This document shows positions 5,249 through 59,114 of a DNA stretch of 59,114 bases, piece after piece. The translations under genes and the position numbers were made by a program. The notes beneath the pieces were generated by a model. It ran no database searches, was not told where the DNA came from, and was given only the letters and a program-made list of their open reading frames with translations. Source of the stretch: a virus (lineage: Duplodnaviria; Caudoviricetes); the IMG/VR virus record IMGVR_UViG_3300042863_001365, positions 1 to 59,114 of that record; one strand, 5' to 3'. Position 1 is the stretch's first letter, and every line of letters starts with the position of its first letter.

Positions 5249-6403
5249 TTATTTGATCTTAGCCCGCGTCACGATTGTTTGCTTAATACCATTATACTCT
5301 TTCAATTCTTTGATAGTGGCCGACATGGTATAAGCATTGCCGATCACATAATCACGCTTATCAGTGAACCAATTCACCGAATTGCCATTGTGCTGGAAGC
5401 AATACAGATACTTGTCACCGAATTGAGTGGTGCCGATAAAGATTTCTTTTTCAAAGATAACGGCAATATCTTTCAGCTTATCGCCTTCATTGCCGATATA
5501 ATCCGACACGATTGCTTTAGCTTTATTGGCAACAATCTGCCCCATTTCGCGGATAATATGCTGGACACCGCTTGCCACCAATGCGAGGTGACGATAAGCA
5601 ACAATATCGCTTTTCAGAATGACGCGGATATTGTCGAGATAATTGTTGTCGAATTGATTGCCAGCACGGAAATAATCCATTGTGGATTGAGCCAATGCTT
5701 TATCAGCATCACAAATTTCAACAGCAACCCACTGCCCTTTAATCTTGATCAAATCATTGATAACATATTGAGCCGTTGGCATGGTTTCCAATTCCATCGC
5801 TTTAGCTTTGCTGATCCAGCCATATTGACGGATATTTGCAGCAGCAGATTCCAGAATTGCCATTGCCGAAAAAATATATTCGCCAGCACCGCCCCAATAT
5901 TCTTTTTCTTCTTCTTCACAAATTGCAGCCAAATCGCCAATGATCGTTGCACGATTAACGATTTCTTCAGGATTATCGCACCCGGTAAAATCACGCAGGC
6001 AGGTTTGACCGACAGCCATTTGTTTGCCATTGGCATCGACAAAAACATAAACATTATTGCGATTACGGTGATGGCCGCAATGATCACATTCATTTTTCAT
6101 GGTGCGGAAACGTGCATCCAATTCGATATTGGCGACATTGTGAACAATGTTTTCTTCACCAATCAATTCCACCTTGGCGGCAAACGTATAGTCGCCAAAC
6201 TTGGGTGCATCGCCAGCGACAGTGACAGTCACCAATTCAATCGCAAAAGTTTTGCCACCTTGCACAATATCTTGCATGAACGGTTTGGTGATCGTGAATT
6301 GAATATCGGCATTGCCATAACGCTTGGCTTTTTTTGCAAGTTTGGCGATACGAGCGGTCAGAGTTTCAGCACGGTGAGCGGGAACGTTGAAGGTGGCGAA
6401 CAT
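5249..6403 (-). CDS. Early protein with Zn-ribbon (CDHC...C) and C-terminal OB-fold-like domain
   Basis: CDHCGHHRNR...VGQTCL; C-terminal YIG..GD....KQTIVTR; GGAGA RBS before ATG 6403; GC-richer than flanks. Confidence 0.7.
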   Translation of the reverse strand: MFATFNVPAHRAETLTARIAKLAKKAKRYGNADIQFTITKPFMQDIVQGGKTFAIELVTVTVAGDAPKFGDYTFAAKVELIGEENIVHNVANIELDARFRTMKNECDHCGHHRNRNNVYVFVDANGKQMAVGQTCLRDFTGCDNPEEIVNRATIIGDLAAICEEEEKEYWGGAGEYIFSAMAILESAAANIRQYGWISKAKAMELETMPTAQYVINDLIKIKGQWVAVEICDADKALAQSTMDYFRAGNQFDNNYLDNIRVILKSDIVAYRHLALVASGVQHIIREMGQIVANKAKAIVSDYIGNEGDKLKDIAVIFEKEIFIGTTQFGDKYLYCFQHNGNSVNWFTDKRDYVIGNAYTMSATIKELKEYNGIKQTIVTRAKIK

Positions 6404-6950: not shown

Positions 6951-7454
6951 TTACAGAGTGCTACGATATTTGCGAAGAGTTTTGTTCATTTCGGCAATGC
7001 AGAAATATTTCATCTGCAAATATGCCAGCAGGTTTTTGCGTTCTTTTTTCATAGTGCGACCAGTGATATTGAAAAGAATTTCATCAATAATCGGATCAAG
7101 TTCAAATTCAATATAAGCATTCAGTTTGGCCCGAGCATGATAAGACATTTTAATTTCTTTGCTCAGACCACGGGTATTTCCAGTATATTTTTCAGTACGA
7201 TGCTTATACGCATCATGCGGAATATAATATTCTGCCGAGATAGGATTACCATGATATTTTTTATTGTTGCCAGACACCATGATAACCATACGCCAGATAT
7301 ATGCGGCAATACCGTTTTCAGGTTTGACCGTGCGGATATACGTTCCGCTTTTATTCTTTGAAACAATTTGCGAAACGATTTCGCTTTGTTTGGTAGTCAA
7401 TGCCATTGCGTCGATATTGACAGTTGGCATTTTATTGAAGATATTCGGATTCAT
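6951..7454 (-). CDS. Hypothetical protein, paralog of 20784..21242
   Basis: Shared KP-x-G-AAY-WRMV, Y-HRT-K and ELDPI-D-I motifs. Confidence 0.7.
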   Translation of the reverse strand: MNPNIFNKMPTVNIDAMALTTKQSEIVSQIVSKNKSGTYIRTVKPENGIAAYIWRMVIMVSGNNKKYHGNPISAEYYIPHDAYKHRTEKYTGNTRGLSKEIKMSYHARAKLNAYIEFELDPIIDEILFNITGRTMKKERKNLLAYLQMKYFCIAEMNKTLRKYRSTL

Positions 7455-7964: not shown

Positions 7965-8411
7965 TTATTGCGGCTGTTTTTTCCACAAGTTCGAATTACG
8001 GCGATATTCCTTGCCCTTAACAGTCAGGCGATAGAACATCTTTGCCCGCCCCGGACCTGCCGTCACCTTGGTTTTGTGCGTTTCCACCAGACCGCGTTCC
8101 ACCAGTTGCAGAGTCAGAACACGCGAAACAGCCGCCCCGACATCATCATAATGATAAAAACCATCTTTTGCAGCGATGAGTTTCAGCCCTTCCGCAATGC
8201 CCCATTTGTCATCGAAAGTGCCAGTGTTTTCGGGGCGACCCACGGCTTTCAATTCGCCACGTTCTGCCATTTCGGCACGTTCAGCAGCATGGACAGCCTT
8301 GCGTTCTGCAGCCCGCTTGAGGCCGATCATTTCGGCAATCTGTTCTTTCAGATCGACAAGAGCCGCAATCGACATCTCTTCAAAGTTCATGATCTCTGCA
8401 ACGTCCGACAT
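7965..8411 (-). CDS. Putative DNA-binding protein (coiled N-terminus, winged-helix-like C-terminus)
   Basis: GGAG RBS; C-terminal LVERGLV...GRAKMFYRLTVKG resembles a wHTH wing; similar to 28930..29343. Confidence 0.55.
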   Translation of the reverse strand: MSDVAEIMNFEEMSIAALVDLKEQIAEMIGLKRAAERKAVHAAERAEMAERGELKAVGRPENTGTFDDKWGIAEGLKLIAAKDGFYHYDDVGAAVSRVLTLQLVERGLVETHKTKVTAGPGRAKMFYRLTVKGKEYRRNSNLWKKQPQ

Positions 8412-12098: not shown

Positions 12099-12824
12099 TC
12101 AGTATGCGGCAATCTGCCTTGCACCTTGCGAAGTTTCTGCACGGGAAAGTGAAACCTTGCTGCCTGCATTTTGACCAGCACGATATGCCGAACCATCGTT
12201 GATCACAATTTTCGTCGCCGTTCCCTTTTTAAGATGAATATTCACTTGACGCTGATATTCTTCCGTAACCATCTGATTCTTCAAGATAATCAGCGATGTG
12301 CCGCCACTTGCACGAGTCTCGCTTTTAAGATCACGCAAACGCTGATTGATACGATTTGCCATGCCAACCATAAAAGATTTGCGAATAGTCCGCTTATGGC
12401 CCACATCAGTCAACGAATTGGAATAAACAGCCCATTCCCATTCCATCGCACGAAACAAAACTTCACGAATAAACTTTGCCGTTTCAACATCGGCGGCATA
12501 TCCAAAGAAATTGATATTCACGCCCGTCTTGATCGAACCAGCATACTCTTTATTCTGCCACACTTTGACGCCGCAAAATTCTGCAACAGTGGCGATGCAA
12601 TACAAATCAGCTTCATGCAGATTCTTGCGACCATCACGCACAACTTCACGCAAGAAATCTTTGGCTGCAGCGGTGTTTGCCAGAATGTCGGCTTCAGTAA
12701 CACCATGTTCATCCATCAGCTTTTGAGCAATACGCAATGCTGCCATTGCTTCCGCTTCAGTAGCACCGTTGGAAGTCTTTTTGTTCAACAATGCTGCAAT
12801 CTTGGCCTTGATAGCTTCCGACAT
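12099..12824 (-). CDS. DUF2786-like protein
   Basis: N-terminal KIAALL...ATEAEAMAALRIAQKLMDEHG; RKSFMVG and AYRAG..AG downstream; GGAG RBS. Confidence 0.75.
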   Translation of the reverse strand: MSEAIKAKIAALLNKKTSNGATEAEAMAALRIAQKLMDEHGVTEADILANTAAAKDFLREVVRDGRKNLHEADLYCIATVAEFCGVKVWQNKEYAGSIKTGVNINFFGYAADVETAKFIREVLFRAMEWEWAVYSNSLTDVGHKRTIRKSFMVGMANRINQRLRDLKSETRASGGTSLIILKNQMVTEEYQRQVNIHLKKGTATKIVINDGSAYRAGQNAGSKVSLSRAETSQGARQIAAY

Positions 12825-12909
12825 TTTGCGATCTCCATGTTTCGCGTTTCCTTAGACATAGAACTACAGCATGATTCGCATAGTGTCAAGCGTTGTTTTG
12901 CTTTTTCAC

Positions 12910-13080
12910 CTATGCACTCGCACGGCCCATAACATACACTTTATACATATCTTGCCGTTCCATCGTATTAGACAAAAACAAATCATAATGAGGATGATTG
13001 CGAAAGTTTGAACGAATCATAGCATCAAAATCAGCCAATACAATGGCAGAATAAAACAAATCACGATAACGCTGGTTCAT
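12910..13080 (-). CDS. Small hypothetical protein
   Basis: GGAGG RBS before MNQRYR. Confidence 0.55.
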   Translation of the reverse strand: MNQRYRDLFYSAIVLADFDAMIRSNFRNHPHYDLFLSNTMERQDMYKVYVMGRASA

Positions 13081-13117
13081 AGTTGCCTCCAATATCGAAT
13101 CATTGTCAGTCTATCAA

Positions 13118-13187
13118 TATAAATAAGGGTTGTCAATCGCGGACCCGCATCCCATTGACTCTATATTTGTAAGGAAATACAGCAATG
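13118..13187 (+). promoter_or_regulatory. Late promoter TATAAATA plus structured leader of the GIY-YIG gene
   Basis: TATAAATA 13118-13125; GTCAAT-CGC-GGA-loop-TCC-C-ATTGAC-TCTAT...AAGGA...ACAGCA-ATG; same architecture at 55763..55836. Confidence 0.7.
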
Positions 13188-13673
13188 AATATTTATTATG
13201 ATACTACTCCATATTTTTATGTCATAGAAGATGTAAGAAATGGTAAAAAGTATGCAGGAAGTAGATGGAGAAAAGGATGCCATCCTTCTGAATTATTAAG
13301 AGAGAAAAATGGATACTATACATCATCTAAAGAAGTTAATAAAATTATCAAAGAACACGGATTACTCGTCTTTAGAATAGTTAAAATAAAAGAATGCAAA
13401 AACAAAGATGCGGTTTATGCATATGAAACTGATTATCTTACAGAAAAAGATGCCGCTACTAATAATCTCTATTACAACAAACATAATAACGATTACTCAA
13501 CGTTGCAATATAAGGGGAACCGTAAAGTTGTAAACGATATAAACAAGTATAAAGACCACTTTAACCTAAAACTTAATAAGTTCGGATTAAAAGGCGGATG
13601 GTGGCAAAAGACTGATGAAGATTTATTATATGTATTAGAACGTATTATACTTGCATTCGGTGAAATCAAATGA
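13185..13673 (+). CDS. GIY-YIG-like free-standing (homing) endonuclease
   Basis: YFYVI...KKYAGSR...YYTSS...YE-DYL...YYNK pattern of Seg-like nucleases; oriented opposite to its neighbours. Confidence 0.7.
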   Translation: MNIYYDTTPYFYVIEDVRNGKKYAGSRWRKGCHPSELLREKNGYYTSSKEVNKIIKEHGLLVFRIVKIKECKNKDAVYAYETDYLTEKDAATNNLYYNKHNNDYSTLQYKGNRKVVNDINKYKDHFNLKLNKFGLKGGWWQKTDEDLLYVLERIILAFGEIK

Positions 13674-14049
13674 TAATTCCATAAAAATCATTGTCGTCAT
13701 ATATGGTTTCGACTTCTTCAACAATTTCTGCGACCCTAAATTTGGTTCTAAGGTATTCTTTTAACTTAACTTCAGCTTCTTCTAATACATATATTTTATC
13801 ATCATGTATTCCACCGAATGTATTATTTGTTTCTTTATACTTTTTAAGGTGTTTTCTAACAAAAATTAAAAAATTTACCGATGCATCTATACTTAAATCT
13901 AAATTTTGACGTTTTTGCTGCCCATAATAACTTTTAGATTTCCCTAAATAAATTTGAGAAAAATCGTTTGTGCTAGTTACTAAACCTACATCTAAAAAAT
14001 TTTGGGCTAAATAATACATTAAACGCTGCTTAAATTCTTCCGCTGCCAT
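13666..14049 (-). CDS. Hypothetical protein
   Basis: GAGG RBS; FSQIYLGKSKSYY motif, possibly HTH-like. Confidence 0.65.
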   Translation of the reverse strand: MAAEEFKQRLMYYLAQNFLDVGLVTSTNDFSQIYLGKSKSYYGQQKRQNLDLSIDASVNFLIFVRKHLKKYKETNNTFGGIHDDKIYVLEEAEVKLKEYLRTKFRVAEIVEEVETIYDDNDFYGIII

Positions 14050-14178
14050 AGTGCCTCACATCCTGAAAAATACCGTTTTTTGAACGGGGTAAATCATACG
14101 ATTCAATATATTTTAATCATATGACCATAATATTTATCATAATTCCTACACGTTTATTATTATTGTGTAGGAATTACA

Positions 14179-14424
14179 TTAACGAGGTATTTGTTCACTG
14201 AATTCTATTATATTATAATTGGGTTGTGTAAGTTTGAATTGTGTTAATATGTAATCATTTCCCTGCCATATAAATGGATACGGTTGATTCATAAATGAAA
14301 GACTTATATCTCCACCACAATTAATCCAGTGTTTTGCCATAGTATCATACATATCTCTATAGTGGTGTCTTGATAGTTGATATGTATGAAAACTTACATA
14401 ATATGTTTTTAATTTATTATTCAT
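14179..14424 (-). CDS. Mini-protein family A member
   Basis: HWINCGG...GNDYILTQFKLT. Confidence 0.7.
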   Translation of the reverse strand: MNNKLKTYYVSFHTYQLSRHHYRDMYDTMAKHWINCGGDISLSFMNQPYPFIWQGNDYILTQFKLTQPNYNIIEFSEQIPR

Positions 14425-14660
14425 TGTATTATTTCTTTAATGGTTAAGCAATATGAGTATTGATAAGTTAATATAAACTCTGTCATGATTTCATTTGATC
14501 CGGCAAGATACAGTCCATGTGTTTCTGGTATTATTCCGCCTAGTTCTTTCCAATAGTCTATTATATGATCTTCTTGTGCCCATGATTTAATATATGTAAA
14601 ATTATTTTTTATATCTGGTAAGAAGTCTTGTATTATTGTTACATAATATATTTTGTTCAT
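14421..14660 (-). CDS. Mini-protein family A member
   Basis: YWKELGG...GSNEIMTEFILTY. Confidence 0.7.
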   Translation of the reverse strand: MNKIYYVTIIQDFLPDIKNNFTYIKSWAQEDHIIDYWKELGGIIPETHGLYLAGSNEIMTEFILTYQYSYCLTIKEIIQ

Positions 14661-14884
14661 TATGTGATTTCTTTAATATTAACATATTGTGCGTAAGTGT
14701 ATGTTAGCATAAACTCTATTAGGATTTCATCACTTCCGTATATATAATGGAATGCGTTATCATATATTCCACCCAATGATTCCCAATGTTCGACTGCATG
14801 ATAGTATGGTTTATATTGATTACGATAATTTATCTGCATTGGCAGGAAGAATTTTGTTGTTATGAGTTCATATGTTTTATTCAT
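14660..14884 (-). CDS. Mini-protein family A member
   Basis: HWESLGG...GSDEILIEFMLTY. Confidence 0.7.
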   Translation of the reverse strand: MNKTYELITTKFFLPMQINYRNQYKPYYHAVEHWESLGGIYDNAFHYIYGSDEILIEFMLTYTYAQYVNIKEIT

Positions 14885-15098
14885 TTACTTCACTTATTGA
14901 CAGATGTGGTGATATTGGGTATATTAATAAAAATTCCATTAGTATATCATCGGTTCCATATAAGTGTGAGCAATCGTTGTTTTCTCTAATACCTCCTAAG
15001 TGTTCCCAACATATTTGTATTGTGATCATATCTGATACTAGTTCGAGGTAATCTATTATTGGTAAATATTTATTTCGATAAATTTTATATTTTTTCAT
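14877..15098 (-). CDS. Mini-protein family A member
   Basis: CWEHLGG...GTDDILMEFLLIY; start MKKY overlaps the upstream stop (TAATG). Confidence 0.7.
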   Translation of the reverse strand: MKKYKIYRNKYLPIIDYLELVSDMITIQICWEHLGGIRENNDCSHLYGTDDILMEFLLIYPISPHLSISEVNE

Positions 15099-15265
15099 TA
15101 TTCCCACACGGTTTTATTAACATTGGGCCATTTGTTTTTGATACGGGTCATATTATCATCATACCAAGTAGTATCACGATTAAGTTTTTGGATGAGTTCT
15201 TTCATTTTTTTAGTATTATGGTAGCTTTGGATATCATATTTCCAAGCGGTCATTTTCATATCCAT
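15098..15265 (-). CDS. Small hypothetical protein (55 aa)
   Basis: Translated by hand (MDMKMTAWKY...VWE); stop coupled to the next start. Confidence 0.45.
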   Translation of the reverse strand: MDMKMTAWKYDIQSYHNTKKMKELIQKLNRDTTWYDDNMTRIKNKWPNVNKTVWE

Positions 15266-51561: not shown

Positions 51562-52002
51562 ATGAAAAAACCAACGAAAAAAAATAAACCAAGTGCTTCT
51601 TCGAAATTTTCTTACATTTTGAAGAAGCACTTTAATCTTGACTATACCGATAATGATTTAAAAAATGCATTAGAAAATATGGGTATTTCTGATATAGTTT
51701 CACTAGACATTGCTATCGAAAATAAAGATATAAATTCTATAAAAGAAATATTCAATAAGACTATTCAGCTAGAATATACTATACCTAATAGAGCAAATTT
51801 ACCATCGGCTGCACAGAATAGACCATCTGTTTCAACTTCAAAAACTACAACTAAACCAATCGGTAGTTTGAATTCTACAGAATTCAATGCACAACAAAAA
51901 TTAGATACCGAAAAAGAAAAAAAAGATCAAGAATTACAAAATGAAATAAAATCTAAAGAAGAAGAATTAGAAACTATTAAAAGATTAGCAGGAATAAAAT
52001 GA
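51562..52002 (+). CDS. Late hypothetical protein ending IKRLAGIK
   Basis: ATAAATA upstream. Confidence 0.65.
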   Translation: MKKPTKKNKPSASSKFSYILKKHFNLDYTDNDLKNALENMGISDIVSLDIAIENKDINSIKEIFNKTIQLEYTIPNRANLPSAAQNRPSVSTSKTTTKPIGSLNSTEFNAQQKLDTEKEKKDQELQNEIKSKEEELETIKRLAGIK

Positions 52003-52202
52003 GAACAATAACTGGAATCGGTGGTATTTCTTTATTTTTAAACAATAAAGAATGGGATTTGATACAAGATAAATCAGAAGTATTCTTGCGTTCATCTTTG
52101 AAAGATGATCAAAAATATCTGGCTAGTCAAATGCATAGACGAGGAATATTAACTGCGTCTAGAGTAGATGGCGATATTAAATACAAATTGAATAAAAATT
52201 AA
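51999..52202 (+). CDS. Small hypothetical protein
   Basis: ATGA-coupled to the upstream gene. Confidence 0.6.
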   Translation: MRTITGIGGISLFLNNKEWDLIQDKSEVFLRSSLKDDQKYLASQMHRRGILTASRVDGDIKYKLNKN

Positions 52203-52203
52203 T

Positions 52204-52686
52204 ATGATTAACATAACATATAATATATTTGAAGAATTGGTAGAAAATGCCATAAATGATATAGTTTCAGAAAGTAACTATAACAATAATTTAAAATTAG
52301 CTTCATTAACCAAAATTGAAAATGGAAATATTACAGTTGGTGACTATACTATTAATAAAAAAATTATTAGTTTATGGGGAGTAAAAAAATCATTTTATGA
52401 TGTCTCCTGCGATAATAGATTAGAAGTAGAAAATATTGGTTCTAGTCTATTATTATTTAAAATATTATTAAAATTATTAGACAATCGAACAATAACTGAA
52501 AATGATCCATTGCCAATACTTAATGCAAGATATGTAGGAATTATATCAGATGCCTTATATTATAAATCAAGATTATTAAGTAATGGTTACAAAAGTGATA
52601 CTACTAAAAATGTGTATCAAGCAAAATATGAAGGTTGTATAGATGCACTTCATCGAGTCAACGAACAAATTAATAAAATTTCATAA
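52204..52686 (+). CDS. Hypothetical protein
   Basis: Intact ORF within the operon. Confidence 0.65.
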   Translation: MINITYNIFEELVENAINDIVSESNYNNNLKLASLTKIENGNITVGDYTINKKIISLWGVKKSFYDVSCDNRLEVENIGSSLLLFKILLKLLDNRTITENDPLPILNARYVGIISDALYYKSRLLSNGYKSDTTKNVYQAKYEGCIDALHRVNEQINKIS

Positions 52687-52717
52687 ATAATAGAAATAAA
52701 CATATTGGAGAACAGAA

Positions 52718-53512
52718 ATGTTTTTAGAAGATTTTGACACCCCCGCACAACGTTTTGGAAAAATCCAAAACTATTTGAGAGAAAATTATAATTGTGAAAT
52801 TGCACCCGACACTTTGACATATTCTCGCGTAAATCATTTACTAAAAGAAACGAAAGAAAAACTTTCGAAGTTAGATGAAAAGAAAAATGCAAAAGAATAT
52901 GCAAAATTACAAATAATCTCAGAAGGTTTAAAGCTTTGGAAACTTGCCCCAGTGCAAACTGAATTGACTAGTCCTGCTATTAGAGAAGCATTAGATGATA
53001 GCAATATGGAAGAAGCAAAAGTTATTATTGCTGCTGAAGAAATGACAGATAAACTACAAAAAATGATTGAAGACTTGGCAGAAATGCAAGTTCAGCAATT
53101 AATTCCAATTATAGATGCAATGAAAGCAGAAATTGGAAATGCAGAAGCCAGCCAATTTAATGACGTTGTTGATGGTTCATTGGGTGAATTGTTAGATTTG
53201 GCTAAGTCAACAAAAGACAAGCTAACAACTGCTATACAAGTAGCAAGCGGTCAGCAATCAGGCAACGACATGGGTGCAGACATTAACCCAGAAGATGAAT
53301 TTGGAATGCCAAGTGATATCGAATTAGGTGGCGAACCAGATCAATTCGCAGGTGACGATGCTGCAGCGGGCGATATGGGTCCAGAAGGCAGAACAATGAA
53401 AGGCGAAAGCATTAATTACATGAGTGCATTGTCTGAAGTAAAATCTGCAATGAAAAATGGAAAAATTTCTAAAGTTGCATTAGAAAATGTAATAAGCAGA
53501 ATTAAAAAGTAA
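52718..53512 (+). CDS. Acidic helical putative head scaffold/core protein
   Basis: ATAAATA and GGAG upstream; acidic Gly/Pro linker. Confidence 0.55.
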   Translation: MFLEDFDTPAQRFGKIQNYLRENYNCEIAPDTLTYSRVNHLLKETKEKLSKLDEKKNAKEYAKLQIISEGLKLWKLAPVQTELTSPAIREALDDSNMEEAKVIIAAEEMTDKLQKMIEDLAEMQVQQLIPIIDAMKAEIGNAEASQFNDVVDGSLGELLDLAKSTKDKLTTAIQVASGQQSGNDMGADINPEDEFGMPSDIELGGEPDQFAGDDAAAGDMGPEGRTMKGESINYMSALSEVKSAMKNGKISKVALENVISRIKK

Positions 53513-53521
53513 GAGAAATAT

Positions 53522-53896
53522 ATGCGTTATCAACAGTTAGTTATCGAATCAGACTATATAGAAAATCTAAAAAGTGAAATAATTAATTTATTAACTATTG
53601 CATCTTCTAGAGATATTAAAAGTTTGCGAACCAGCTTTTTGGTTAAAGATTTGCAAAATATGGGATTTGATGTTAATATAAATACTATACTTTCTATAAT
53701 GAATGATTTAGATATAGTATCTACTGCTGACAACAAAAAAATAGAAATAGCAACAAAAGATAAAGAGAATGATCAAGAAGAAATTGATGTTCCTGATTTC
53801 GGAGAAAATAAACCATTTGGCGGGTTTGAAGATAATACAACTGACCCAATAGATGCTGCAGCTAAACGCCAAGCAACAAAGGATATAAAATTATGA
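53522..53896 (+). CDS. Hypothetical protein with MRYQQLVIE tag
   Basis: N-terminal tag; late operon. Confidence 0.65.
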   Translation: MRYQQLVIESDYIENLKSEIINLLTIASSRDIKSLRTSFLVKDLQNMGFDVNINTILSIMNDLDIVSTADNKKIEIATKDKENDQEEIDVPDFGENKPFGGFEDNTTDPIDAAAKRQATKDIKL

Positions 53897-54210
53897 TTCC
53901 TTTATTCACCGCAGAAAATGCAAGAGTAAACTCGAAAAATGATTTAATAATATTTGATGAAATCGTATATATTTCTAGAGTTATAATAAATCAAAGTTTA
54001 GATGGAACTTATCAAGCCACTGTATCTAGTGGAACTACTATGACAACCACATCAGTATATTACCAATCATGGATTGGGACATCTCCTGATCGTCAAATAT
54101 ATGAACAAATGGCATCAGTTATACAATATTTTGAAAAACTAGGATATACTATTACTCGTAAAACAAATGCGATAACAGGTAATACTATATCTTGGTTTGT
54201 TCAATGGTAA
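53893..54210 (+). CDS. Hypothetical (virion) protein
   Basis: ATGA-coupled; ends F-KLGY-I-R...W-V-W. Confidence 0.65.
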   Translation: MIPLFTAENARVNSKNDLIIFDEIVYISRVIINQSLDGTYQATVSSGTTMTTTSVYYQSWIGTSPDRQIYEQMASVIQYFEKLGYTITRKTNAITGNTISWFVQW

Positions 54211-54252
54211 AAAGTTCTTGACAATCTAATCAAAATCTAGTAGTATACTAAT

Positions 54253-54936
54253 ATGATAACATATAATCCACAATATAATTACACACCATTGAATCGTATA
54301 GATTCTGATAACGGCAGGAAGTATAATACTCCTACTGGAAACTTACCAAGTGTTACCACTATTCTTAGTGCAACAAAATCTCAAGAAAGTAAACAAAAAC
54401 TCCAACAATGGAGAAATAGAGTAGGTGATGCCGAAGCTACGAAAATTACTAATGAAGCAGCTAATGTTGGAACAATAATGCATGGAATTCTAGAACATTG
54501 GGTTCTAGGCAAAGAACACGATCCGGGAAATAATGTAATTCATCGCCAAGCCAAAATGATGGCAGAAAAAGTAAAAGAAAATATATCACCATATATTTCT
54601 GAAATATGGGGCAGTGAAGTAAATTTATATTATCCAGATTTATATGCAGGAACCGCAGACTTAGTAGGAATGTGGAAAGGAAAACCAGCTATATTGGATT
54701 TCAAACAAACAAACAAACCGAAAAAGATAGAATATGTCACTGACTATTATCTGCAGCTTACTGCATATGCGTTGGCTCACAATGAATTATATGGGACTAA
54801 TATTAAAGAAGGACATATATTAATGTGTAGTAGAGATTTAGATTATCAACAATTTGATTTATTGCCAGATGATTTTAGTTATTGGGAAGATCAATTTCTT
54901 TCAAAACTTGAAGAATATTACAATTTAACAAAATAA
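54253..54936 (+). CDS. PD-(D/E)XK exonuclease (Cas4-like fold)
   Basis: PSVTTIL; GT-MH; AGTADL; ILDFKQ; YYLQLTAYA. Confidence 0.85.
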   Translation: MITYNPQYNYTPLNRIDSDNGRKYNTPTGNLPSVTTILSATKSQESKQKLQQWRNRVGDAEATKITNEAANVGTIMHGILEHWVLGKEHDPGNNVIHRQAKMMAEKVKENISPYISEIWGSEVNLYYPDLYAGTADLVGMWKGKPAILDFKQTNKPKKIEYVTDYYLQLTAYALAHNELYGTNIKEGHILMCSRDLDYQQFDLLPDDFSYWEDQFLSKLEEYYNLTK

Positions 54937-54940
54937 GATA

Positions 54941-55765
54941 TCATAATTTTTGTGGTTTATTGCATTGTGATAGATGATATCGAGTAAACACCCTCTTATT
55001 AATTTCATTTCCGCAATGTAAACAACATAACATCGGCAAATTAGTTTGCATTTGTGATAATTTAATTTTATGATCTTCTGATTTGGGTTTACCTTCATGT
55101 AATAACTTTAATTTATGTTTTGTTTCTAAAGAAACTGGAGGACGATTTAATGCACTGTCTGATTGTTTTTTTCTGGTTTCTGAAGATGCAGATTTTCCGA
55201 GTTTTGAAGCTCTTAGCTTATTTCTGGTTTCTTCTGTTATTTCTCTGCCCTTCATATTTTCTTTATGGCTATCTGATTTTGGTTTTCTCATATTTTGTTT
55301 ATGTATTTCACTAAAAGGTTTTCCGAGTTTTGCGGCACTAATTTTCTTTCTAGTGGATTCGGACATTTCTTTTGTAGTTTTAACTCCTTTTTGTATCAGA
55401 CTAATAGCTTCTGAATGCATAGTTTTTATGTTGGCGTATGATCTTGCCGTTATAAATTTATTATATTTTTTTGAATAAACAAATCTTATTAATGCACAAA
55501 CCATCTTTGCTTTTGGGATTCCAGTTAACATTTTTGGAAGCAATAAGTGACATATGAAATGTTCTTTTGCCGTTAGTTTCACTATATTTTTTGCATCATT
55601 GGGGTTGCCCTCTAACCAACCAATTGGTCCTTTTCTAAATCTAGAAATATAAAAACATTCTGGAATTATATGGTGTTTTTCTGTATACCCGATATTAACT
55701 CTATCAGATGCTTTTTTTATTATGGAATAATACCATTTAGTATATTTGTTATCTATAAATACCAT
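54941..55765 (-). CDS. HNH homing endonuclease with NUMOD3-like repeats
   Basis: EKHHIIP...N...LTAKEHFICHLLL; repeated SEETR-K-S / SE-HK-K units; antisense insertion in the core operon. Confidence 0.85.
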   Translation of the reverse strand: MVFIDNKYTKWYYSIIKKASDRVNIGYTEKHHIIPECFYISRFRKGPIGWLEGNPNDAKNIVKLTAKEHFICHLLLPKMLTGIPKAKMVCALIRFVYSKKYNKFITARSYANIKTMHSEAISLIQKGVKTTKEMSESTRKKISAAKLGKPFSEIHKQNMRKPKSDSHKENMKGREITEETRNKLRASKLGKSASSETRKKQSDSALNRPPVSLETKHKLKLLHEGKPKSEDHKIKLSQMQTNLPMLCCLHCGNEINKRVFTRYHLSQCNKPQKL

Positions 55766-55836
55766 TGCTGTTGTTCCTTATGACAATAGAATAGTTGGGA
55801 TGACTGCCAAGAAAATCCGCGAACTATATTATTTAT
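55763..55836 (-). promoter_or_regulatory. Late promoter plus structured leader of the HNH gene
   Basis: ATAAATA...ATAGTT-CGC-GGAT-loop-ATCC-C-AACTAT-TCTAT...AAGGA...ACAGCA-ATG. Confidence 0.7.
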
Positions 55837-55906
55837 CTTTCGCTTGACATTTATTATTGGGCGTGCTATAATTGGTAAATAATAAAAAGATATAAAGGAA
55901 ACTCAT

Positions 55907-56590
55907 ATGGCGACAACTAGAATTTCAAAAATAAAAGTAAGAAGTGGTCAATTAAGCGATTTGCCTGTTCTTGATCCTAGTGAATTTGGCTATTCGACTG
56001 ACGAACATCGTCTTTTTATTGGTAATACAGAACTAACAGTAGGAACAGGCAATGGAACTAATAGAATATTTAATATTCCAATATCAAGCAATTTTCCACT
56101 ACCAACCAATAATTTAGAAAATCCAAAGTTTTTTGTGAATGGTAGTCAACGTAGTGATATTGTTATTGGTGGAACAACTGTAACTTTTGCCACCGCACCT
56201 GTACTAAATGCAATAGTAACTATAAAATTCAATAGCGAAATAGCATTAGTAAATTCTACTGAAACCCCAAGTTCATTAGTATTTAATGCTGCTACTCCAT
56301 TATTTTTAGACACTAATTTTACATTTAATTATACTATATATGATACATGTTATATAGATTATACTATTAGGTTAACAAATAATACTGGATTTAGAATGGG
56401 TAGAATTAGGTTGATGGTAGATAAAAACAATGCTGAATTTAAAATAGATGATGAATACAATTCATTAACAAATACAACAGAGATAGATTTTGATGCTAGA
56501 TTATCTGGAAATTATTGTTATCTTACTTATAAAAATAATACAGTATCTCCCGCAGTTTTTAAATATACGTTTAAACTATGGAAGATGTAA
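55907..56590 (+). CDS. Virion structural / tail-associated protein
   Basis: N-terminal KIKVRSG..DLPVL..EFGY-TD-RLFIGN, typical of tail-fibre-type N-termini. Confidence 0.65.
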   Translation: MATTRISKIKVRSGQLSDLPVLDPSEFGYSTDEHRLFIGNTELTVGTGNGTNRIFNIPISSNFPLPTNNLENPKFFVNGSQRSDIVIGGTTVTFATAPVLNAIVTIKFNSEIALVNSTETPSSLVFNAATPLFLDTNFTFNYTIYDTCYIDYTIRLTNNTGFRMGRIRLMVDKNNAEFKIDDEYNSLTNTTEIDFDARLSGNYCYLTYKNNTVSPAVFKYTFKLWKM

Positions 56591-57048
56591 AAATAAAAAA
56601 AATATATTGGCAAAGATCACCAGAACAAAGAATAGAACTATGGAGAAGATTTAGAAGAAGTTTTTCTTCTACTGATACAGCAGAAATTTGTAATGAAAGT
56701 TGGTCATGGTGGATAATGTCACCAGATGTAAATCGAACAATTGATCCATATAATCCAAATACATGGCTAACGTTTTGGGAAATGATTCAATTGGGAGAAA
56801 CATGCAAATATAGCAAAGCCGTGGGTGCGGCTTTTATGATACACTATCTAAATTCTAATCTAGATATTGTTATATCTAGGGTTTATGATAAAAATAAAAA
56901 CGATATATACATTACCACATTAGTAGAAAACAAATTTCTACTGCATCCTGAATATACCGAGGTAATGGAAATGAATAATGATTATGTAATTCAGGAAACG
57001 TGGTCAATTAAAAAAATATTAGAAATTATAAAATATAGGTCTGCGTAA
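56578..57048 (+). CDS. Hypothetical protein
   Basis: Trp-rich; R-ELWR-FR...DPY-P-TW-T-WE. Confidence 0.65.
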   Translation: MEDVKIKKIYWQRSPEQRIELWRRFRRSFSSTDTAEICNESWSWWIMSPDVNRTIDPYNPNTWLTFWEMIQLGETCKYSKAVGAAFMIHYLNSNLDIVISRVYDKNKNDIYITTLVENKFLLHPEYTEVMEMNNDYVIQETWSIKKILEIIKYRSA

Positions 57049-57173
57049 TAATATGGAAGTTTCTATTTTAATATTAGAAATATTCATCAATTACCTATAA
57101 TAATTAAACATACTCCTGCACATAATAATGATGTGGGCTATAACTTTTTGGTTTACGAATATAAGGATTAATA

Positions 57174-59114
57174 ATGTCAAATGTAATAGAATTTTCTCGC
57201 GATAAAGATACAAGGGATATCATGTCAGATGCCAAATTCTACGAGGGATACTCTCGGTGGAATGATGATAAAGGCAGATACGAAACATGGAATGAAGCTG
57301 TCGAACGTGTTATGAACACACACAGAGAATTTTACAAAAATAAGATGACTCCTGAATTGGAATCACTTATTAACGAAGCTGAAGAATTATACAAGCAAAA
57401 GTATTTCTTGGGTGCCCAAAGAGCGTTACAATTTGGTGGCGATCAGTTGTTAAAGAATCATATGAAACTATATAACTGCACAAGTTCATATGCAGACCGT
57501 ACAGAATTTTTTGGAGAATATTTTTGGATTCTATTAAGTGGTTGCGGTGCTGGTTTCTCTGTGCAACAGCATCATATTGCAAAACTTTCTAACATTCAAA
57601 ATAGAACTAAATCTTCAAAAATTCATGTAATCGAAGATTCTATAGAAGGATGGGCAGAAGCAGTTGATGTATTACTTTCGTCATATTTTGTTGGTGGTGG
57701 TAAGCATCCAGAATTTGAAGGACGTAGAGTATACTTTGATACATCTTCGATCCGTCCAAAAGGCTCAAAAATTAGTGGGGGATTTAAAGCACCGGGTCCA
57801 GAACCGCTACGCCGTGCATTAGATAAAATTGAATATTTGCTTCAAGGTCTAGTTCTAAAAGGTGAAACTAAATTAGCATCTATCAATGTATACGATATTT
57901 GTATGCATATCGCAGATGCAGTTATCAGTGGTGGTGTTCGTCGTGCAGCAACCATCTGTTTATTTTCAATTAACGATGAAGAAATGATGAGTGCGAAAAC
58001 CGGAAATTGGTTTGCAGAAAATCCACAACGTGCAAGATCAAATAACAGTGCAGTTATTGTTAAAAATACTGCAACATACGAACAGTTTGACTATATTATG
58101 CAAAAAGTTAAACAATTCGGTGAGCCAGGATTCGTTTTTGTCGAATCAACTGAACATGCAACCAATCCATGTGTTGAAATTGGTATGTTTCCACAATATA
58201 TTGATGAAAACAAAGTAAGTCATAGTGGATGGCAAGGTTGTAATCTTGCAGAAATAAATGGTGCAAAAGCTAATTCAAAGGAAGAATTCTATAAATCAAT
58301 TCGTGGTGCTGCCATTGTTGCAACTCTACAAGCTGGTTATACTAATTTTAAATTTGTCAGTGAAGTAACTAAAAAAATCTTTGAACGTGAAGCACTTCTT
58401 GGTGTTTCTATCACTGGATGGATGAATAATCCACATGTATTACTTAATGAAGTAGTGCTAAAAGAAGGTGCTGAACTTGTAAAAACTATAAACAAGCAAG
58501 TTGCAAAACTAATTGGCATTAATCCAGCAGCAAGAACTACTTGTGTTAAGCCAGCAGGAAACGCATCTGTTATTCTTAAAACTGCAAGCGGTGTTCATGG
58601 TGAACATTCACCCCGTTATATCCGTAACGTGCAAATGAATAAAGATACAGAAGTTGCACAGCTTATTCGCAAAACAAACCCCTACATGGTTGAAGAAAGT
58701 GTATGGAGTGCAGGAAGAACTGATTATGTTATTTCATTTCCAGTTATTGCACCAATGAGTTCTGTTTTCCGTAAAGATTTGTATGGTCTTAATCTACTTG
58801 AAAAAGTAAAACTAATTCAAAACTCTTGGGTAGAATTTGGAACAGACGAAGCATTATGTGTTGATCCAACGGTTCGTCATAATGTATCAAATACTATTTC
58901 AGTATTGCCAGATCAATGGGAAGAAGTTGGAAAATATATATTTGACAACCGTAAAAGTTTTGCTGGTGTTAGTCTAATGAGTGCATCTGGTGATCGTGAT
59001 TATAATCAAGCACCAAATACAGAAATTCTTACTGAGCAAGAAATTGTTAAAAAATATGGACGTGGTGCTATGTTTGCTTCTGGTTTGATTGTTGACACTT
59101 TTAAAGGTTTCAAT
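57174..59114 (+). CDS. nrdJ: Class II (adenosylcobalamin-dependent) ribonucleotide reductase, 3'-truncated by window edge
   Basis: Translated by hand: RYETW-EAV-RV, YNC, GCGAGFSVQ, SGGVRRAA, GEPGF, TNPCVEI, GCNLAEI, TTCVKPAGNAS; absent from the ORF track because no stop falls in the window. Confidence 0.88.
   Translation, partial: MSNVIEFSRDKDTRDIMSDAKFYEGYSRWNDDKGRYETWNEAVERVMNTHREFYKNKMTPELESLINEAEELYKQKYFLGAQRALQFGGDQLLKNHMKLYNCTSSYADRTEFFGEYFWILLSGCGAGFSVQQHHIAKLSNIQNRTKSSKIHVIEDSIEGWAEAVDVLLSSYFVGGGKHPEFEGRRVYFDTSSIRPKGSKISGGFKAPGPEPLRRALDKIEYLLQGLVLKGETKLASINVYDICMHIADAVISGGVRRAATICLFSINDEEMMSAKTGNWFAENPQRARSNNSAVIVKNTATYEQFDYIMQKVKQFGEPGFVFVESTEHATNPCVEIGMFPQYIDENKVSHSGWQGCNLAEINGAKANSKEEFYKSIRGAAIVATLQAGYTNFKFVSEVTKKIFEREALLGVSITGWMNNPHVLLNEVVLKEGAELVKTINKQVAKLIGINPAARTTCVKPAGNASVILKTASGVHGEHSPRYIRNVQMNKDTEVAQLIRKTNPYMVEESVWSAGRTDYVISFPVIAPMSSVFRKDLYGLNLLEKVKLIQNSWVEFGTDEALCVDPTVRHNVSNTISVLPDQWEEVGKYIFDNRKSFAGVSLMSASGDRDYNQAPNTEILTEQEIVKKYGRGAMFASGLIVDTFKGFN

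What the first reader, a model, noticed from the sequence alone, without database searches (positions are those of the whole stretch)
13118..13187. Covarying structured leader shared by two unrelated homing endonuclease genes 42 kb apart
Seen: the GIY-YIG-like gene (13185) and the HNH gene (55765, minus) both have TAAATA, then a 6-bp stem, CGC, GGA, a variable loop, TCC, C, the complementary stem, TCTAT, AAGGA and ACAGCA-ATG. The outer stem differs in sequence yet pairs in both (GTCAAT/ATTGAC versus ATAGTT/AACTAT), while the internal-loop bases are fixed. Known: T4 endonuclease genes are controlled by late promoters and RBS-proximal hairpins. Inference: a conserved cis-regulatory RNA, or a mobility or end signal, that travels with endonucleases of different families. 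It may mark an undescribed class of mobile cassette.
Basis: partly seen in the sequence, partly recalled or inferred. Interest (0 to 1): 0.8.

Follow-up and report, generated by a model that had tools for sequence, protein, structure and literature searches.

The report
Portable control leader of phage homing-endonuclease genes
Both endonuclease genes in this lake-phage fragment start with the same small folded control element, which recurs in front of many selfish nuclease genes of uncultured T4-like phages and may be read from both DNA strands.

Summary
Both window copies (13120-13196 +, 55835-55755 -) score 72.7 and 66.2 bits with a covariance model; the next best window hit scores 13.7. 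Pattern scans and the model recovered 92 copies (91 distinct) in IMG/VR contigs.

The module reads: TAAATA, about 5 nt, hairpin H1 (free outer stem, fixed CGCG/CC core), TCTA, hairpin H2 with the Shine-Dalgarno in its loop, CAGC, ATG, TATTTA. H1 is 98.5% paired and 9 of its 10 pairs covary.

Every copy with a readable gene precedes a homing endonuclease: GIY-YIG, HNH or other types. Relatives without the endonuclease lack the leader.

It matches no Rfam family and was not found in 10 cultured phages. The closest print record is Dassa 2009, which may describe the same element.

New here: the reverse strand folds better (82 of 88; invariant G·U), and TATTTA mirrors the promoter core. This suggests a face-to-face promoter pair and an antisense or outward RNA. 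That part is inference. I rate it a new variant of a known kind, interest about 0.6.

The parts
13118..13125 (+). Copy A: T4-type late-promoter-like box TATAAATA (core TAAATA 13120-13125)
   Evidence: TAAATA starts 20-38 nt before the ATG of 15 of 85 window ORFs. About 1 is expected from 67 sites (the expectation is my arithmetic).
13132..13159 (+). Copy A hairpin H1: GTCAAT / CGCGGA-loop-TCCC / ATTGAC
13160..13183 (+). Copy A: TCTA linker, hairpin H2 (T-ATTT ... AAAT-A) with AAGGA (13171-13175) in its loop, then CAGC
13185..13673 (+). GIY-YIG (SegE-like) homing-endonuclease ORF, 162 aa. TATTTA at 13190-13195 (codons 2-4) is the reverse complement of the promoter core.
55830..55835 (-). Copy B: late-promoter-like core TAAATA
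55791..55827 (-). Copy B hairpin H1: ATAGTT / CGCGGA-15 nt-TCCC / AACTAT
55767..55790 (-). Copy B: TCTA linker, hairpin H2 (T-TGT ... ACA-A) with AAGGA (55779-55775) in its loop, then CAGC
54941..55765 (-). HNH-type homing-endonuclease ORF, 274 aa, with NUMOD3-like repeats and a C-terminal CxxC..H..C motif
55754..55761 (+). TATAAATA on the + strand, inside codons 2-4 of the HNH gene. It faces the leader and gene 55907. Candidate antisense or outward late promoter.
   Evidence: Promoter activity is inferred, not shown.
13189..13196 (-). AATAAATA on the - strand, inside codons 2-4 of the GIY-YIG gene. It faces the leader and the divergent small ORF that starts near 13080. Candidate antisense or outward late promoter.
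   Evidence: Inferred.
54937..55875 (.). Segment present in the window but absent from 8 endonuclease-free relatives, lying between the exonuclease gene (stop at 54936) and the TAAATA promoter of gene 55907
   Evidence: The same site holds an orthologous HNH cassette with leader in L180. The right-hand limit is approximate.

Best explanation
The finding is one of two window copies of an approximately 85-bp control module. It forms the 5' edge of free-standing homing-endonuclease cassettes in uncultured T4-like and jumbo phages; the window's own phage was found in lake water.

Anatomy:
- (A)TAAATA, a T4-type late-promoter core
- about 5 nt of spacer
- hairpin H1: a 6-bp outer stem of free sequence, a fixed C-G-C / C internal loop, a 3-4-bp inner stem and a G+C-rich loop
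- UCUA
- hairpin H2, which shows the Shine-Dalgarno AAGGA in its loop
- CAGC, then ATG
- TATTTA, the promoter core in reverse complement, in codons 2-4

Shown: it is a selected, structured cis element. It belongs to the inserted endonuclease unit and travels with nucleases of different catalytic families.

Inferred mechanism, sense direction: late transcription starts at the foot of H1. The endonuclease mRNA therefore begins with a protective or regulatory hairpin and presents its ribosome site in a loop. Expression is confined to late infection and does not depend on the neighbours, which matters because the cassette often sits antisense to them.

Inferred mechanism, reverse direction: the mirrored promoter core fires a second late transcript in the opposite direction. 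It starts at the foot of H2' and folds into two stronger hairpins of 8 and 10 bp, with G·U where the sense strand has A·C. It then runs into a U-rich stretch. This reverse RNA is complementary to the whole initiation region of the endonuclease mRNA. It could damp endonuclease translation, or it could serve as the leader of a divergent neighbour whose own promoter the insertion displaced.

My odds:
- about 0.9 that this is a functional cis-regulatory part of the cassette
- about 0.5 that the reverse-strand transcript exists and is under selection
For: Family and structure:
- Scans gave 98 IMG/VR stretches, 71 unique leaders and 92 model hits, 91 of them distinct.
- H1 is 98.5% paired and 9 of its 10 pairs change on both sides. 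All 4 H2 pairs covary.
- The covariation score is 0.598 against 0.170 in shuffles (0 of 500 reach it) and at most 0.079 when the partners are slid.

Control for chance: the same pattern found 11 hits in 596 billion bases of prokaryote genomes. Only 1 is real by the model, a 1.7-kb contig of a metagenome-assembled genome (MAG).

Link to endonucleases:
- 59 of 71 unique leaders have an ORF. Their products match homing-endonuclease PHROGs (30 and 16 of 59 for the two commonest) and NUMOD3 (18 of 59).
- 17 of 17 hits in five whole contigs precede such ORFs.
- In the window, 2 of 2 detected endonuclease genes carry the leader and no other place does.

Inside the inserted unit:
- 8 relatives have the exonuclease gene and the 55907 homologue adjacent, with no endonuclease and no leader.
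- L180 has an orthologous HNH cassette with a leader at the same site.
- Paralogous cassettes align from the TAAATA onward.

Promoter:
- TAAATA lies 20-38 nt before 15 of 85 window ORFs.
- The spacing from TAAATA to the stem is 5 nt in 57 of 87 copies.

TATTTA is conserved at the nucleotide level:
- It is present in 71 of 87 copies.
- It occurs in all three reading frames (57, 9 and 3).
- In the commonest frame it follows 11 different second codons.
- Its spacing from CAGC is 5 nt in 40 of 71 copies.
- It is absent from three leaderless HNH homologues of cultured phages.

Strand asymmetry:
- Non-Watson-Crick cells are A·C or C·A in 42 cases and G·U in 7.
- The reverse strand folds better in 82 of 88 copies (-16.35 against -12.66 kcal/mol).
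- It also has lower z-scores against its own shuffles (-1.91 against -1.13; 67 of 88; p = 2e-8).
- RNAalifold gives -19.04 against -13.08 on mirrored alignments.
- An 18-pair reverse-strand structure is 97.6% paired and holds a G·U in 52 of 52 sequences. Three copies outside that set have A-U there instead (TAGC rows).

Other support:
- The 12 nt after H1' hold 6.8 T on average.
- 21 of 34 divergent neighbours have no TAAATA of their own. Five of them start within 20 nt of the cassette.
Against: - There is no expression data. No RNA run holds this phage, so both promoters, both start sites and the reverse transcript are inferred from sequence.
- TATAAATA as an 8-mer is not enriched in the window (9 found, 14.5 expected).
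- TATTTA lies in the Ile-Tyr frame in 57 of 69 cases, and Ile-Tyr is the start of the GIY motif. Part of its conservation is therefore protein-level.
- The A·C excess is dominated by one recurrent H2 variant. Cells are not independent events.
- The invariant G·U cannot covary, so it does not prove pairing.
- The simple terminator scan finds nothing at either window copy. A real terminator would also conflict with reading into the neighbour.
- Gene 55907 next to copy B keeps its own TAAATA and a perfect sigma-70-type promoter, so it does not need an outward promoter.
- In copy B the 2-nt spacer would put a late start inside H1.
- The fixed CGCG/CC core remains unexplained.
- Only about half of the endonuclease-like genes in four carrier contigs have the leader (13 of 26).
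Confidence: 0.5

Rival explanations
1. Sense-only leader. The element acts only as the 5' UTR of the late endonuclease mRNA. H1 is a 5'-terminal stabiliser or the binding site of a phage or host regulator, which would explain the fixed CGCG/CC loop. H2 presents the Shine-Dalgarno. TATTTA is just the Ile-Tyr codons and an A/U-rich start, and the reverse-strand features are by-products.
For: - The promoter, hairpin, Shine-Dalgarno and ATG lie in the order and spacing of an expression leader.
- The fixed internal loop between free stems looks like a protein site.
- TATTTA is in the Ile-Tyr frame in 57 of 69 cases.
- T4 endonuclease genes are known to be held to late times by promoters and RNA structure (review passages).
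Against: - TATTTA also occurs in two other frames, and when the ATG is shifted upstream.
- It is missing in leaderless homologues.
- G·U is almost absent on the sense strand (7 cells) while A·C is 42.
- The reverse strand is more stable, also relative to its own shuffles.
Confidence: 0.27
2. Insulator for host-direction transcripts. Many cassettes sit antisense to their neighbours, so host-operon RNA crosses them backwards. H1' plus the U-rich stretch would end or stabilise that RNA just before the next gene's own promoter. This would be a terminator-promoter joint like a PeSL.
For: - In 21 of 48 cases the cassette is antisense to both neighbours (crude ORF calls).
- The tail after H1' is U-rich in most copies: 84 of 92 have at least 5 T in an 8-nt window.
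- At copy B, the reverse hairpin is followed by a perfect TTGACA-17-TATAAT and a TAAATA before gene 55907.
- The reverse strand folds better.
Against: - The terminator scan finds no site at either window copy.
- The stem next to the U stretch is A+T-rich.
- Outward sigma-70-like promoters are rare in the family: 11 of 70 with up to 2 mismatches, and only copy B is perfect.
- 10 of 48 cassettes are co-directional with both neighbours.
- This does not explain the conserved TATTTA or its fixed spacing to CAGC.
Confidence: 0.08
3. T4 gene e / I-TevI-type masking. In read-through RNA from upstream genes, the promoter sequence UAAAUA pairs with UAUUUA just after the AUG. This closes a three-way junction and blocks translation. 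Late transcripts lack the 5' arm and are translated.
For: - A perfect 6-7-nt complement flanks the leader in 71 of 87 copies.
- This logic is established for I-TevI, I-TevII, I-TevIII, segB, Aeh1 mobE and T4 late genes (review passages).
Against: - The predicted probability of that helix in read-through RNA averages 0.19 and exceeds 0.5 in only 10 of 57 copies.
- It is an all-A·U helix across about 65 nt.
- Flanking positions show no consistent extension (my reading of the rows).
- About two thirds of upstream neighbours are divergent, so there is no read-through to mask.
Confidence: 0.06
4. DNA-level signal. This could be a hairpin or cruciform used in recombination or homing, an end of the mobile unit, or an operator where the endonuclease represses its own promoter, as I-TevI does.
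For: - Pairing in H1 is near-exclusive Watson-Crick, 893 of 910 cells, as expected for a DNA hairpin.
- The element touches the promoter.
- I-TevI autorepression at its late promoter is known (review passages).
Against: - Stems of free sequence cannot be read by a sequence-specific dimer.
- The carriers have different DNA-binding parts, and copy A's protein lacks NUMOD3 and the zinc motif.
- The A·C against G·U asymmetry and the strand difference in stability point to RNA.
- The cassette's other end shows no matching repeat. I did not search for one systematically.
Confidence: 0.05
5. No function. The similarity is only shared descent or a recent duplication of a 5' gene end.
For: The two window copies alone could be read this way (4 of 100 shuffles reach 2 matches of the short pattern).
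Against: More than 20 different outer-stem sequences all pair. Fixed boxes are kept while the proteins have diverged to 7-40% identity or to different folds.
Confidence: 0.01

Closest known systems
Late-promoter plus RNA-hairpin control of T-even homing endonucleases (I-TevI, I-TevII, I-TevIII, segB, Aeh1 mobE). Passages of Edgell, Gibb and Belfort 2010 read (PMC2988022).
   Same: A T4-type late promoter directly before the endonuclease ORF, RNA structure in the leader, and expression presumably held to late infection.
   Different: In the T4 cases the hairpin sequesters the ribosome site and the promoter lies so that late RNA cannot form it. Each gene has its own sequence. Here the promoter lies outside the hairpins and the ribosome site sits in a loop. 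One conserved module is shared by about 90 genes of several nuclease families. The model finds nothing in T4 or Aeh1.
Hairpins with TATAAATA and two complementary conserved motifs in 5' UTRs of GIY-YIG and Vsr-like endonuclease genes of metagenomic 'fractured genes' (Dassa et al. 2009, PMC2677866). Section 14 and passages read.
   Same: Metagenomic phage-like loci, free-standing endonucleases of more than one family, a hairpin before the start codon in 15 of 16, a late-promoter box in 10, and conserved motifs that pair in the stem. It may be the same element.
   Different: [quoted passage not shown] They place the promoter box within the hairpin and read it as ribosome-site attenuation. They report no covariation analysis, second hairpin, mirrored TATTTA or strand asymmetry in the text I read.
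seg43(25) hairpin of Aeromonas phage 25, as described in the review
   Same: A stable hairpin just upstream of the ribosome site that does not sequester it.
   Different: Not a member. The model gives only an 18.5-bit chance hit, inside uvsW.
PeSL mobile regulatory cassettes of T4-type phages (Arbiol 2010: listing only. Comeau 2014, PMC4122927: passages).
   Same: A short conserved promoter-plus-stem-loop unit found at many places in T4-like genomes and tied to modular gene shuffling.
   Different: PeSLs carry sigma-70-type early (or Mot middle) promoters and flank ORFans in hyperplastic regions. This module carries the late-promoter core and is tied to endonuclease genes. Sigma-70-like boxes are not a family feature.
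Cis-antisense control of mobile-element or phage genes: IS10 RNA-OUT/RNA-IN, P22 sar, SymR/SymE (all recalled, no call), and S-PM2 CfrI, an antisense RNA linked to the endonuclease gene F-CphI (title and citing passages only).
   Same: If the reverse transcript exists: face-to-face promoters, a small stable stem-loop RNA complementary to the ribosome site and start codon of a nuclease or transposase gene, with the outward promoter inside the first codons.
   Different: Nothing is shown here beyond sequence and predicted folding. The module is shared across many genes. No model hit in S-PM2.
Promoters for neighbouring genes embedded in T4 endonuclease ORFs (segG for gene 32; also segA, segE, mobB, mobC). 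Review passages.
   Same: The insertion displaces a host promoter and the cassette carries a replacement, which favours its retention.
   Different: In T4 these promoters serve downstream genes and are locus-specific. Here the candidate promoter is a fixed part of a portable module and points upstream, through the leader.

Membership tests
T4-type RBS-sequestering hairpin with internal late promoter (I-TevI / mobE type) | Late promoter immediately upstream of the endonuclease ORF | tested here: met
   TAAATA lies 65 and 70 nt before the two ATGs. ATAAATA is present in 75 of 87 family members. Promoter activity itself was not tested.
T4-type RBS-sequestering hairpin with internal late promoter (I-TevI / mobE type) | The hairpin pairs with and hides the Shine-Dalgarno | tested here: not met
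   AAGGA lies in the loop of H2, and H1 ends 11 nt upstream of it.
T4-type RBS-sequestering hairpin with internal late promoter (I-TevI / mobE type) | The promoter lies inside the inhibitory structure, so that late RNA lacks its 5' arm | tested here: not met
   The promoter core lies 2-7 nt (mode 5) upstream of H1. The only candidate long-range helix, TAAATA with TATTTA, has a mean predicted probability of 0.19.
Endonuclease 5'-UTR hairpin motifs of Dassa et al. 2009 | Hairpin before the start codon of free-standing endonuclease genes of more than one family, often with TATAAATA | tested here: met
   compared with the paper's section 14.
Endonuclease 5'-UTR hairpin motifs of Dassa et al. 2009 | The same two conserved sequence motifs (their MEME motifs 1 and 2) | not testable with these tools
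   The motifs are shown only in Figure 4A and Supplementary Figure S4.
PeSL regulatory cassette | Near-consensus sigma-70 early promoter joined to a stem-loop | tested here: not met
   11 of 70 leaders have an outward sigma-70-like site with up to 2 mismatches, and 5 of 70 an inward one. Only copy B is perfect.
Any Rfam 15 family | Covariance-model match on either strand | tested here: not met
   Nothing overlaps copy A or the L179 copy at E up to 10. Over copy B there are only two far-sub-threshold matches: 13.8 bits against a gathering score of 54, and 10.7 against 224.5.
Cis-antisense RNA control (IS10 RNA-OUT / P22 sar type) | Outward promoter within the first codons, facing the gene's own promoter | tested here: inconclusive
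   The promoter core is present in reverse complement in 71 of 87 copies, with spacing to CAGC of 5 nt in 40 of 71. There is no transcript data.
Cis-antisense RNA control (IS10 RNA-OUT / P22 sar type) | Stable, selected stem-loop structure in the antisense RNA | tested here: met
   Computational only: 18 pairs, 97.6% paired, G·U in place of A·C, and lower energy and z-score than the sense strand.
Cis-antisense RNA control (IS10 RNA-OUT / P22 sar type) | A discrete antisense transcript, and an effect on the target's translation | not testable with these tools
   No RNA holder was listed. The phage is uncultured.
Intrinsic terminator (reverse strand) | G+C-rich stem followed at once by a T run | tested here: inconclusive
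   The consensus scan finds none at either window copy. Family-wide, 84 of 92 copies have at least 5 T in an 8-nt window within 3 nt of H1', but the basal stem is A+T-rich and bulged.

The most novel reading that the evidence does not exclude
The module is a portable face-to-face pair of late promoters around a 70-nt two-hairpin core. The promoter hidden in codons 2-4 of the endonuclease gene makes a reverse RNA of about 75 nt or longer. That RNA is perfectly complementary to the endonuclease mRNA's ribosome site and start codon. It throttles the selfish nuclease, as RNA-OUT does for IS10 transposase. Where the cassette has landed on a neighbour's promoter, the same transcript restores late expression of that neighbour. 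This would be a self-contained 'do no harm' kit. It would let endonucleases of any catalytic family invade T4-like genomes in either orientation.
Probability: 0.35. Interest if true: 0.78.

Novelty: new variant of a known kind. Interest (0 to 1): 0.62.

Why it matters
Homing endonucleases are the commonest selfish genes of large phages, and how they are kept harmless is known only for a few T4 and Aeh1 genes, each with its own solution.

Here one conserved, covarying module does the job for about 90 genes of several nuclease families across distantly related uncultured phages (terminase identity 34-66% to the window's). This has three consequences:
- It gives a nuclease-independent tag for finding endonuclease cassettes and their borders in metagenomes.
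- It is a compact natural late-expression unit that could be tested in phage engineering.
- If the reverse-strand reading holds, it would be the first family-wide RNA-level brake on phage homing endonucleases. It would also explain how cassettes can sit antisense in operons without polar damage.

It should also be entered as an RNA family, since Rfam has none for it.

Tried and rejected
- Rfam scans of both window copies and of the L179 copy, at E up to 10: only unrelated sub-threshold noise.
- megablast of 12500-14500 against GenBank phages: no match.
- blastn of a canonical leader (L179) against 50,697 phage records at E up to 1: only a 26-nt chance match in an Enterococcus phage.
- Model R1 on T4, PA5oct, Atu_ph07, Phosso and Vibrio 2.275.O, and on Aeromonas 25, Aeh1, HTVC008M, P-SSM2 and S-PM2. 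There were two chance hits of 18-20 bits, one of them inside uvsW.
- Endonuclease-free alleles for copy A: the DUF2786 neighbour has no usable relative. The 55907 protein alone found none.
- G003 does not hold the flanks of the fifth G002 cassette, so that pair gave no presence/absence comparison.
- Expression: no RNA holder was listed.
- Laying contigs of four lake-water runs on 52000-58000 gave fragmented low-depth cover and no joint across the cassette, so no presence/absence polymorphism could be read.
- Long-range TAAATA:TATTTA helix: low predicted probability.
- Terminator scan: none at the window copies.
- Outward sigma-70 promoters as a family feature: no.
- An RNA-guide reading (like HEARO/omega RNA) was considered and dropped. 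The proteins carry their own DNA-binding modules and there was no Rfam match. It was not tested further.
- Figure 4A and Supplementary Figure S4 of Dassa 2009 could not be seen. They may show that this element is already in print.
Full report
**What the window is.** The window is a 59-kb fragment of an IMG/VR virus record, estimated 16% complete.
- Its large terminase is 54% identical to that of the Pseudomonas jumbo phage PA5oct and about 50% identical to those of Atu_ph07 and Phosso.
- Its ORFs match UvsX-like recombinase, DnaB-like helicase, primase, tail tube and other phage families.
- Runs that hold the stretch are labelled lake-water or freshwater metagenomes.
- TAAATA starts 20-38 nt before the ATG of 15 of 85 ORFs. 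About one is expected from the 67 sites on both strands (the expectation is my arithmetic). The phage therefore most likely uses T4-type late promoters, although the full 8-mer TATAAATA is not over-represented.

**The observation.**
- Copy A precedes a 162-aa ORF with a SegE-type GIY-YIG domain.
- Copy B precedes a 274-aa ORF of a homing-endonuclease PHROG with an HNH-type HHIIP motif.
- Both genes run against their neighbours.
- A covariance model built later scores the two copies at 72.7 and 66.2 bits. Nothing else in the window exceeds 13.7 bits.
- Among 85 window ORFs, endonuclease PHROGs are matched by two members only, within the 25 of 87 families listed.

**A large family.**
- A strict pattern found 21 matches in IMG/VR, of which 14 were leaders and 7 were chance.
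- A pattern for the 3' half found 18 loci.
- A pattern spanning TAAATA to TCTAT found 98 stretches.
- In all loci held there were 102 matches and 71 unique leaders. The 6-bp outer stem was fully paired in 67 of the 71, with more than 20 different stem sequences.
- Control: the same pattern in 596 billion bases of prokaryote genomes gave 11 matches. The model accepts only one, a 1.7-kb MAG contig.
- Model R1 then found 92 copies, 91 distinct, in 78 sources. These include copies that the patterns had missed.
- It also found 17 copies in five whole contigs of 109-349 kb, 2 to 5 per contig.

**Anatomy and covariation.** On 91 distinct sequences:
- H1 is 98.5% paired and 9 of its 10 pairs change on both sides.
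- The four core pairs of H2 all covary.
- The covariation score is 0.598, against 0.170 in shuffles (0 of 500 reach it) and at most 0.079 with slid partners.
- This alignment was fitted to the model. The independent MAFFT alignment of 40 sequences gives the same picture.

Variants add more compensation:
- The inner stem varies as GGA/TCC, GGT/ACC, GGG/CCC, GAT/ATC, GAA/TTC and GAG/CTC.
- The pair that closes H2 varies as T:A, A:T, G:C and C:G.

The fixed parts are the T-CGCG ... CC-A core of H1, TCTA, CAGC, and the AAGG of the ribosome site. H1 loops are 62% G+C in leaders of 30-47% G+C.

**What lies downstream.**
- Of 71 unique leaders, 59 have an ATG-started ORF 17-34 nt after TCTAT. The other 12 sit at contig ends or have a decayed start.
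- By my own motif rules, 39 ORFs are GIY-YIG, 11 are HNH and 9 are unclassed. By eye, three of the unclassed look HNH-like, one GIY-like, two begin with a C2H2 finger, and two have NUMOD3 and zinc motifs only.
- PHROG 'homing endonuclease' families 314 and 655 are matched by 30 and 16 of the 59. Pfam NUMOD3 is matched by 18.
- All 17 whole-contig hits precede such ORFs.
- Conversely, in four carrier contigs about 13 of 26 endonuclease-like genes have the leader (my union of places).
- So the leader predicts an endonuclease, but not every endonuclease has it.
- Neighbouring genes are typical T4-like ones: gp20 portal, gp23, gp32, gp59, DnaB/gp41, RNA ligase, thymidylate synthase, DHFR and RNR.
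- The carriers' terminases are 34-66% identical to the window's.

**Inside the mobile unit.**
- Eight IMG/VR relatives, whose exonuclease is about 50% identical, have the exonuclease gene followed after 25-39 nt by the homologue of gene 55907. That spacer holds a TAAATA. They have no leader.
- The window has about 935 extra bases there: the HNH gene, the leader, and about 40 nt that hold a perfect sigma-70-type promoter.
- L180 has an HNH cassette with a leader in the same site and orientation, 36% identical in protein.
- Paralogous cassettes within one contig align from the TAAATA onward.
- For copy A no relatives were found.

**The part beyond the ATG.** TATTTA, the reverse complement of the promoter core, follows CAGC in 71 of 87 copies.
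- The spacing is 5 nt in 40 copies and 6-7 nt in 22.
- It lies in three reading frames (57, 9 and 3).
- In the commonest frame it follows 11 different second codons.
- It keeps its distance from CAGC when the ATG moves upstream (L170 and L081).
- Three HNH homologues in cultured T4-like phages have neither the leader nor TATTTA at codons 2-4.
- Part of this conservation is surely the Ile-Tyr of the GIY motif, but not all of it.

**Strand asymmetry.**
- Non-Watson-Crick cells in the sense alignment are A·C or C·A in 42 cases and G·U in 7. On the other strand these numbers swap.
- The reverse strand folds better in 82 of 88 copies.
- It also folds better relative to dinucleotide shuffles of itself and in RNAalifold on mirrored alignments.
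- On the reverse strand, CAGC and TCTA become GCUG and UAGA and extend H2' to 8 bp, with a G·U in 52 of 52 sequences. The 18-pair structure is 97.6% paired.
- Three copies outside that set have TAGC, which makes A-U at that place.
- After H1', the reverse strand runs into A-[C/T]-T-T-T-T-A-T-T-T-A-T.
- By crude ORF calls, the upstream neighbour is divergent in 34 of 53 cases (21+10+3). A second run, which called ATG starts only and looked within 400 nt, also found 34 divergent neighbours. Of these, 21 have no TAAATA of their own and five start within 20 nt of the cassette.

**Reading.**
- Shown: a selected two-hairpin element that is part of endonuclease cassettes.
- Inferred (sense): a late promoter starts the endonuclease mRNA at the foot of H1.
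- Inferred, with about even odds (reverse): the mirrored core is a second late promoter. Its RNA folds into H2' and H1', and either masks the endonuclease initiation region or leads into the divergent neighbour.
- Against this: there is no RNA evidence; the A·C counts are partly one inherited variant; no terminator is called at the window copies; and gene 55907 keeps its own promoters.
- The T4-style masking helix between TAAATA and TATTTA is weakly predicted.

**Comparison with what is known.**
- T4 and Aeh1 endonuclease genes combine late promoters with hairpins that hide the ribosome site. Some T4 endonuclease ORFs hold promoters for neighbouring genes (review passages).
- This module shares that logic but fails the two defining structural features, and the model finds no copy in T4, Aeh1 or eight other cultured phages.
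- Dassa et al. 2009 reported hairpins, TATAAATA and two complementary conserved motifs before GIY-YIG and Vsr-like endonuclease genes in ocean-survey 'fractured genes'. That may be this element. Their sequences are in a figure and a supplement that I could not see.
- PeSL cassettes are the nearest portable promoter/stem-loop units, but they carry early promoters.
- An antisense RNA tied to a phage endonuclease gene is known in S-PM2 (CfrI; citation and passages only).
- IS10 RNA-OUT, P22 sar and SymR are recalled analogies.
- My three full-text searches turned up no paper that describes this two-hairpin module, its covariation or a reverse-strand RNA. That is a statement about those searches only.

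**Verdict.**
It is wrong about RBS-proximal masking and overstated about a new class of cassette.
- This is a new, well-supported variant of endonuclease expression control, with an open and testable bidirectional twist.

Noticed in passing
window 55844-55872 (+): A perfect sigma-70 consensus promoter, TTGACA-17 nt-TATAAT with TG. It lies between the leader of copy B and the TAAATA of gene 55907. It is absent from the short spacer of endonuclease-free relatives. With the reverse hairpin before it, it resembles a PeSL-type terminator-promoter joint.
   Followed up: partly
window 14179-15107 (-): Four tandem small ORFs of 74-81 aa that look like paralogues, sharing a W..LGG motif near residue 45. 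They lie just downstream of the GIY-YIG cassette. No family was assigned.
   Followed up: no
window ORF set: Three PHROGs are each matched by two separate ORFs: UvsX-like recombinase, DNA primase/helicase and tail tube. These could be split or duplicated genes.
   Followed up: no
G002:C1:26030-29465: The large-terminase homologue of this 242-kb carrier contig is matched in three separate pieces (residues 2-82, 84-269 and 270-514), with gaps of about 1.4 kb and 0.5 kb. This suggests introns, inteins or inserted genes. There is no leader hit in that stretch.
   Followed up: no
L235 4602-5579: At the same exonuclease/55907 junction where the window holds the HNH cassette, this relative holds a 325-aa ORF with a CxxxCxxC motif that looks radical-SAM-like (by eye only). 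The junction seems to be a hot spot for insertions.
   Followed up: no
L185 5662-8249: Three leaders lie within 2.6 kb: 8174-8249 on the + strand, and 6995-7070 and 5662-5736 on the - strand. Two of them drive divergent cassettes on either side of one gene.
   Followed up: no
C-termini of many leader-associated ORFs, e.g. window 54941-55030 (-): A CxxC..(W/Y)H..C zinc-finger-like motif ends both GIY-YIG and HNH proteins (about 20 of 59). This shows module sharing at the 3' end of the cassettes as well as the 5' end.
   Followed up: partly
L261 227-274 (Yersinia phage phiR1-RT, between g149 and g148): A 48-nt divergent intergenic region holds TATAAATA and TATTTAT face to face, each about 30 nt from its own gene (a baseplate wedge gene and an HNH endonuclease gene). 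This is a cultured-phage example of overlapping opposed late-promoter boxes.
   Followed up: partly
window 13108-13136 (-): A sigma-70-like site, TTGACA-17-TAGACT (10 of 12, with TG), overlaps the 5' arm of H1 of copy A and points to the divergent small ORF.
   Followed up: no
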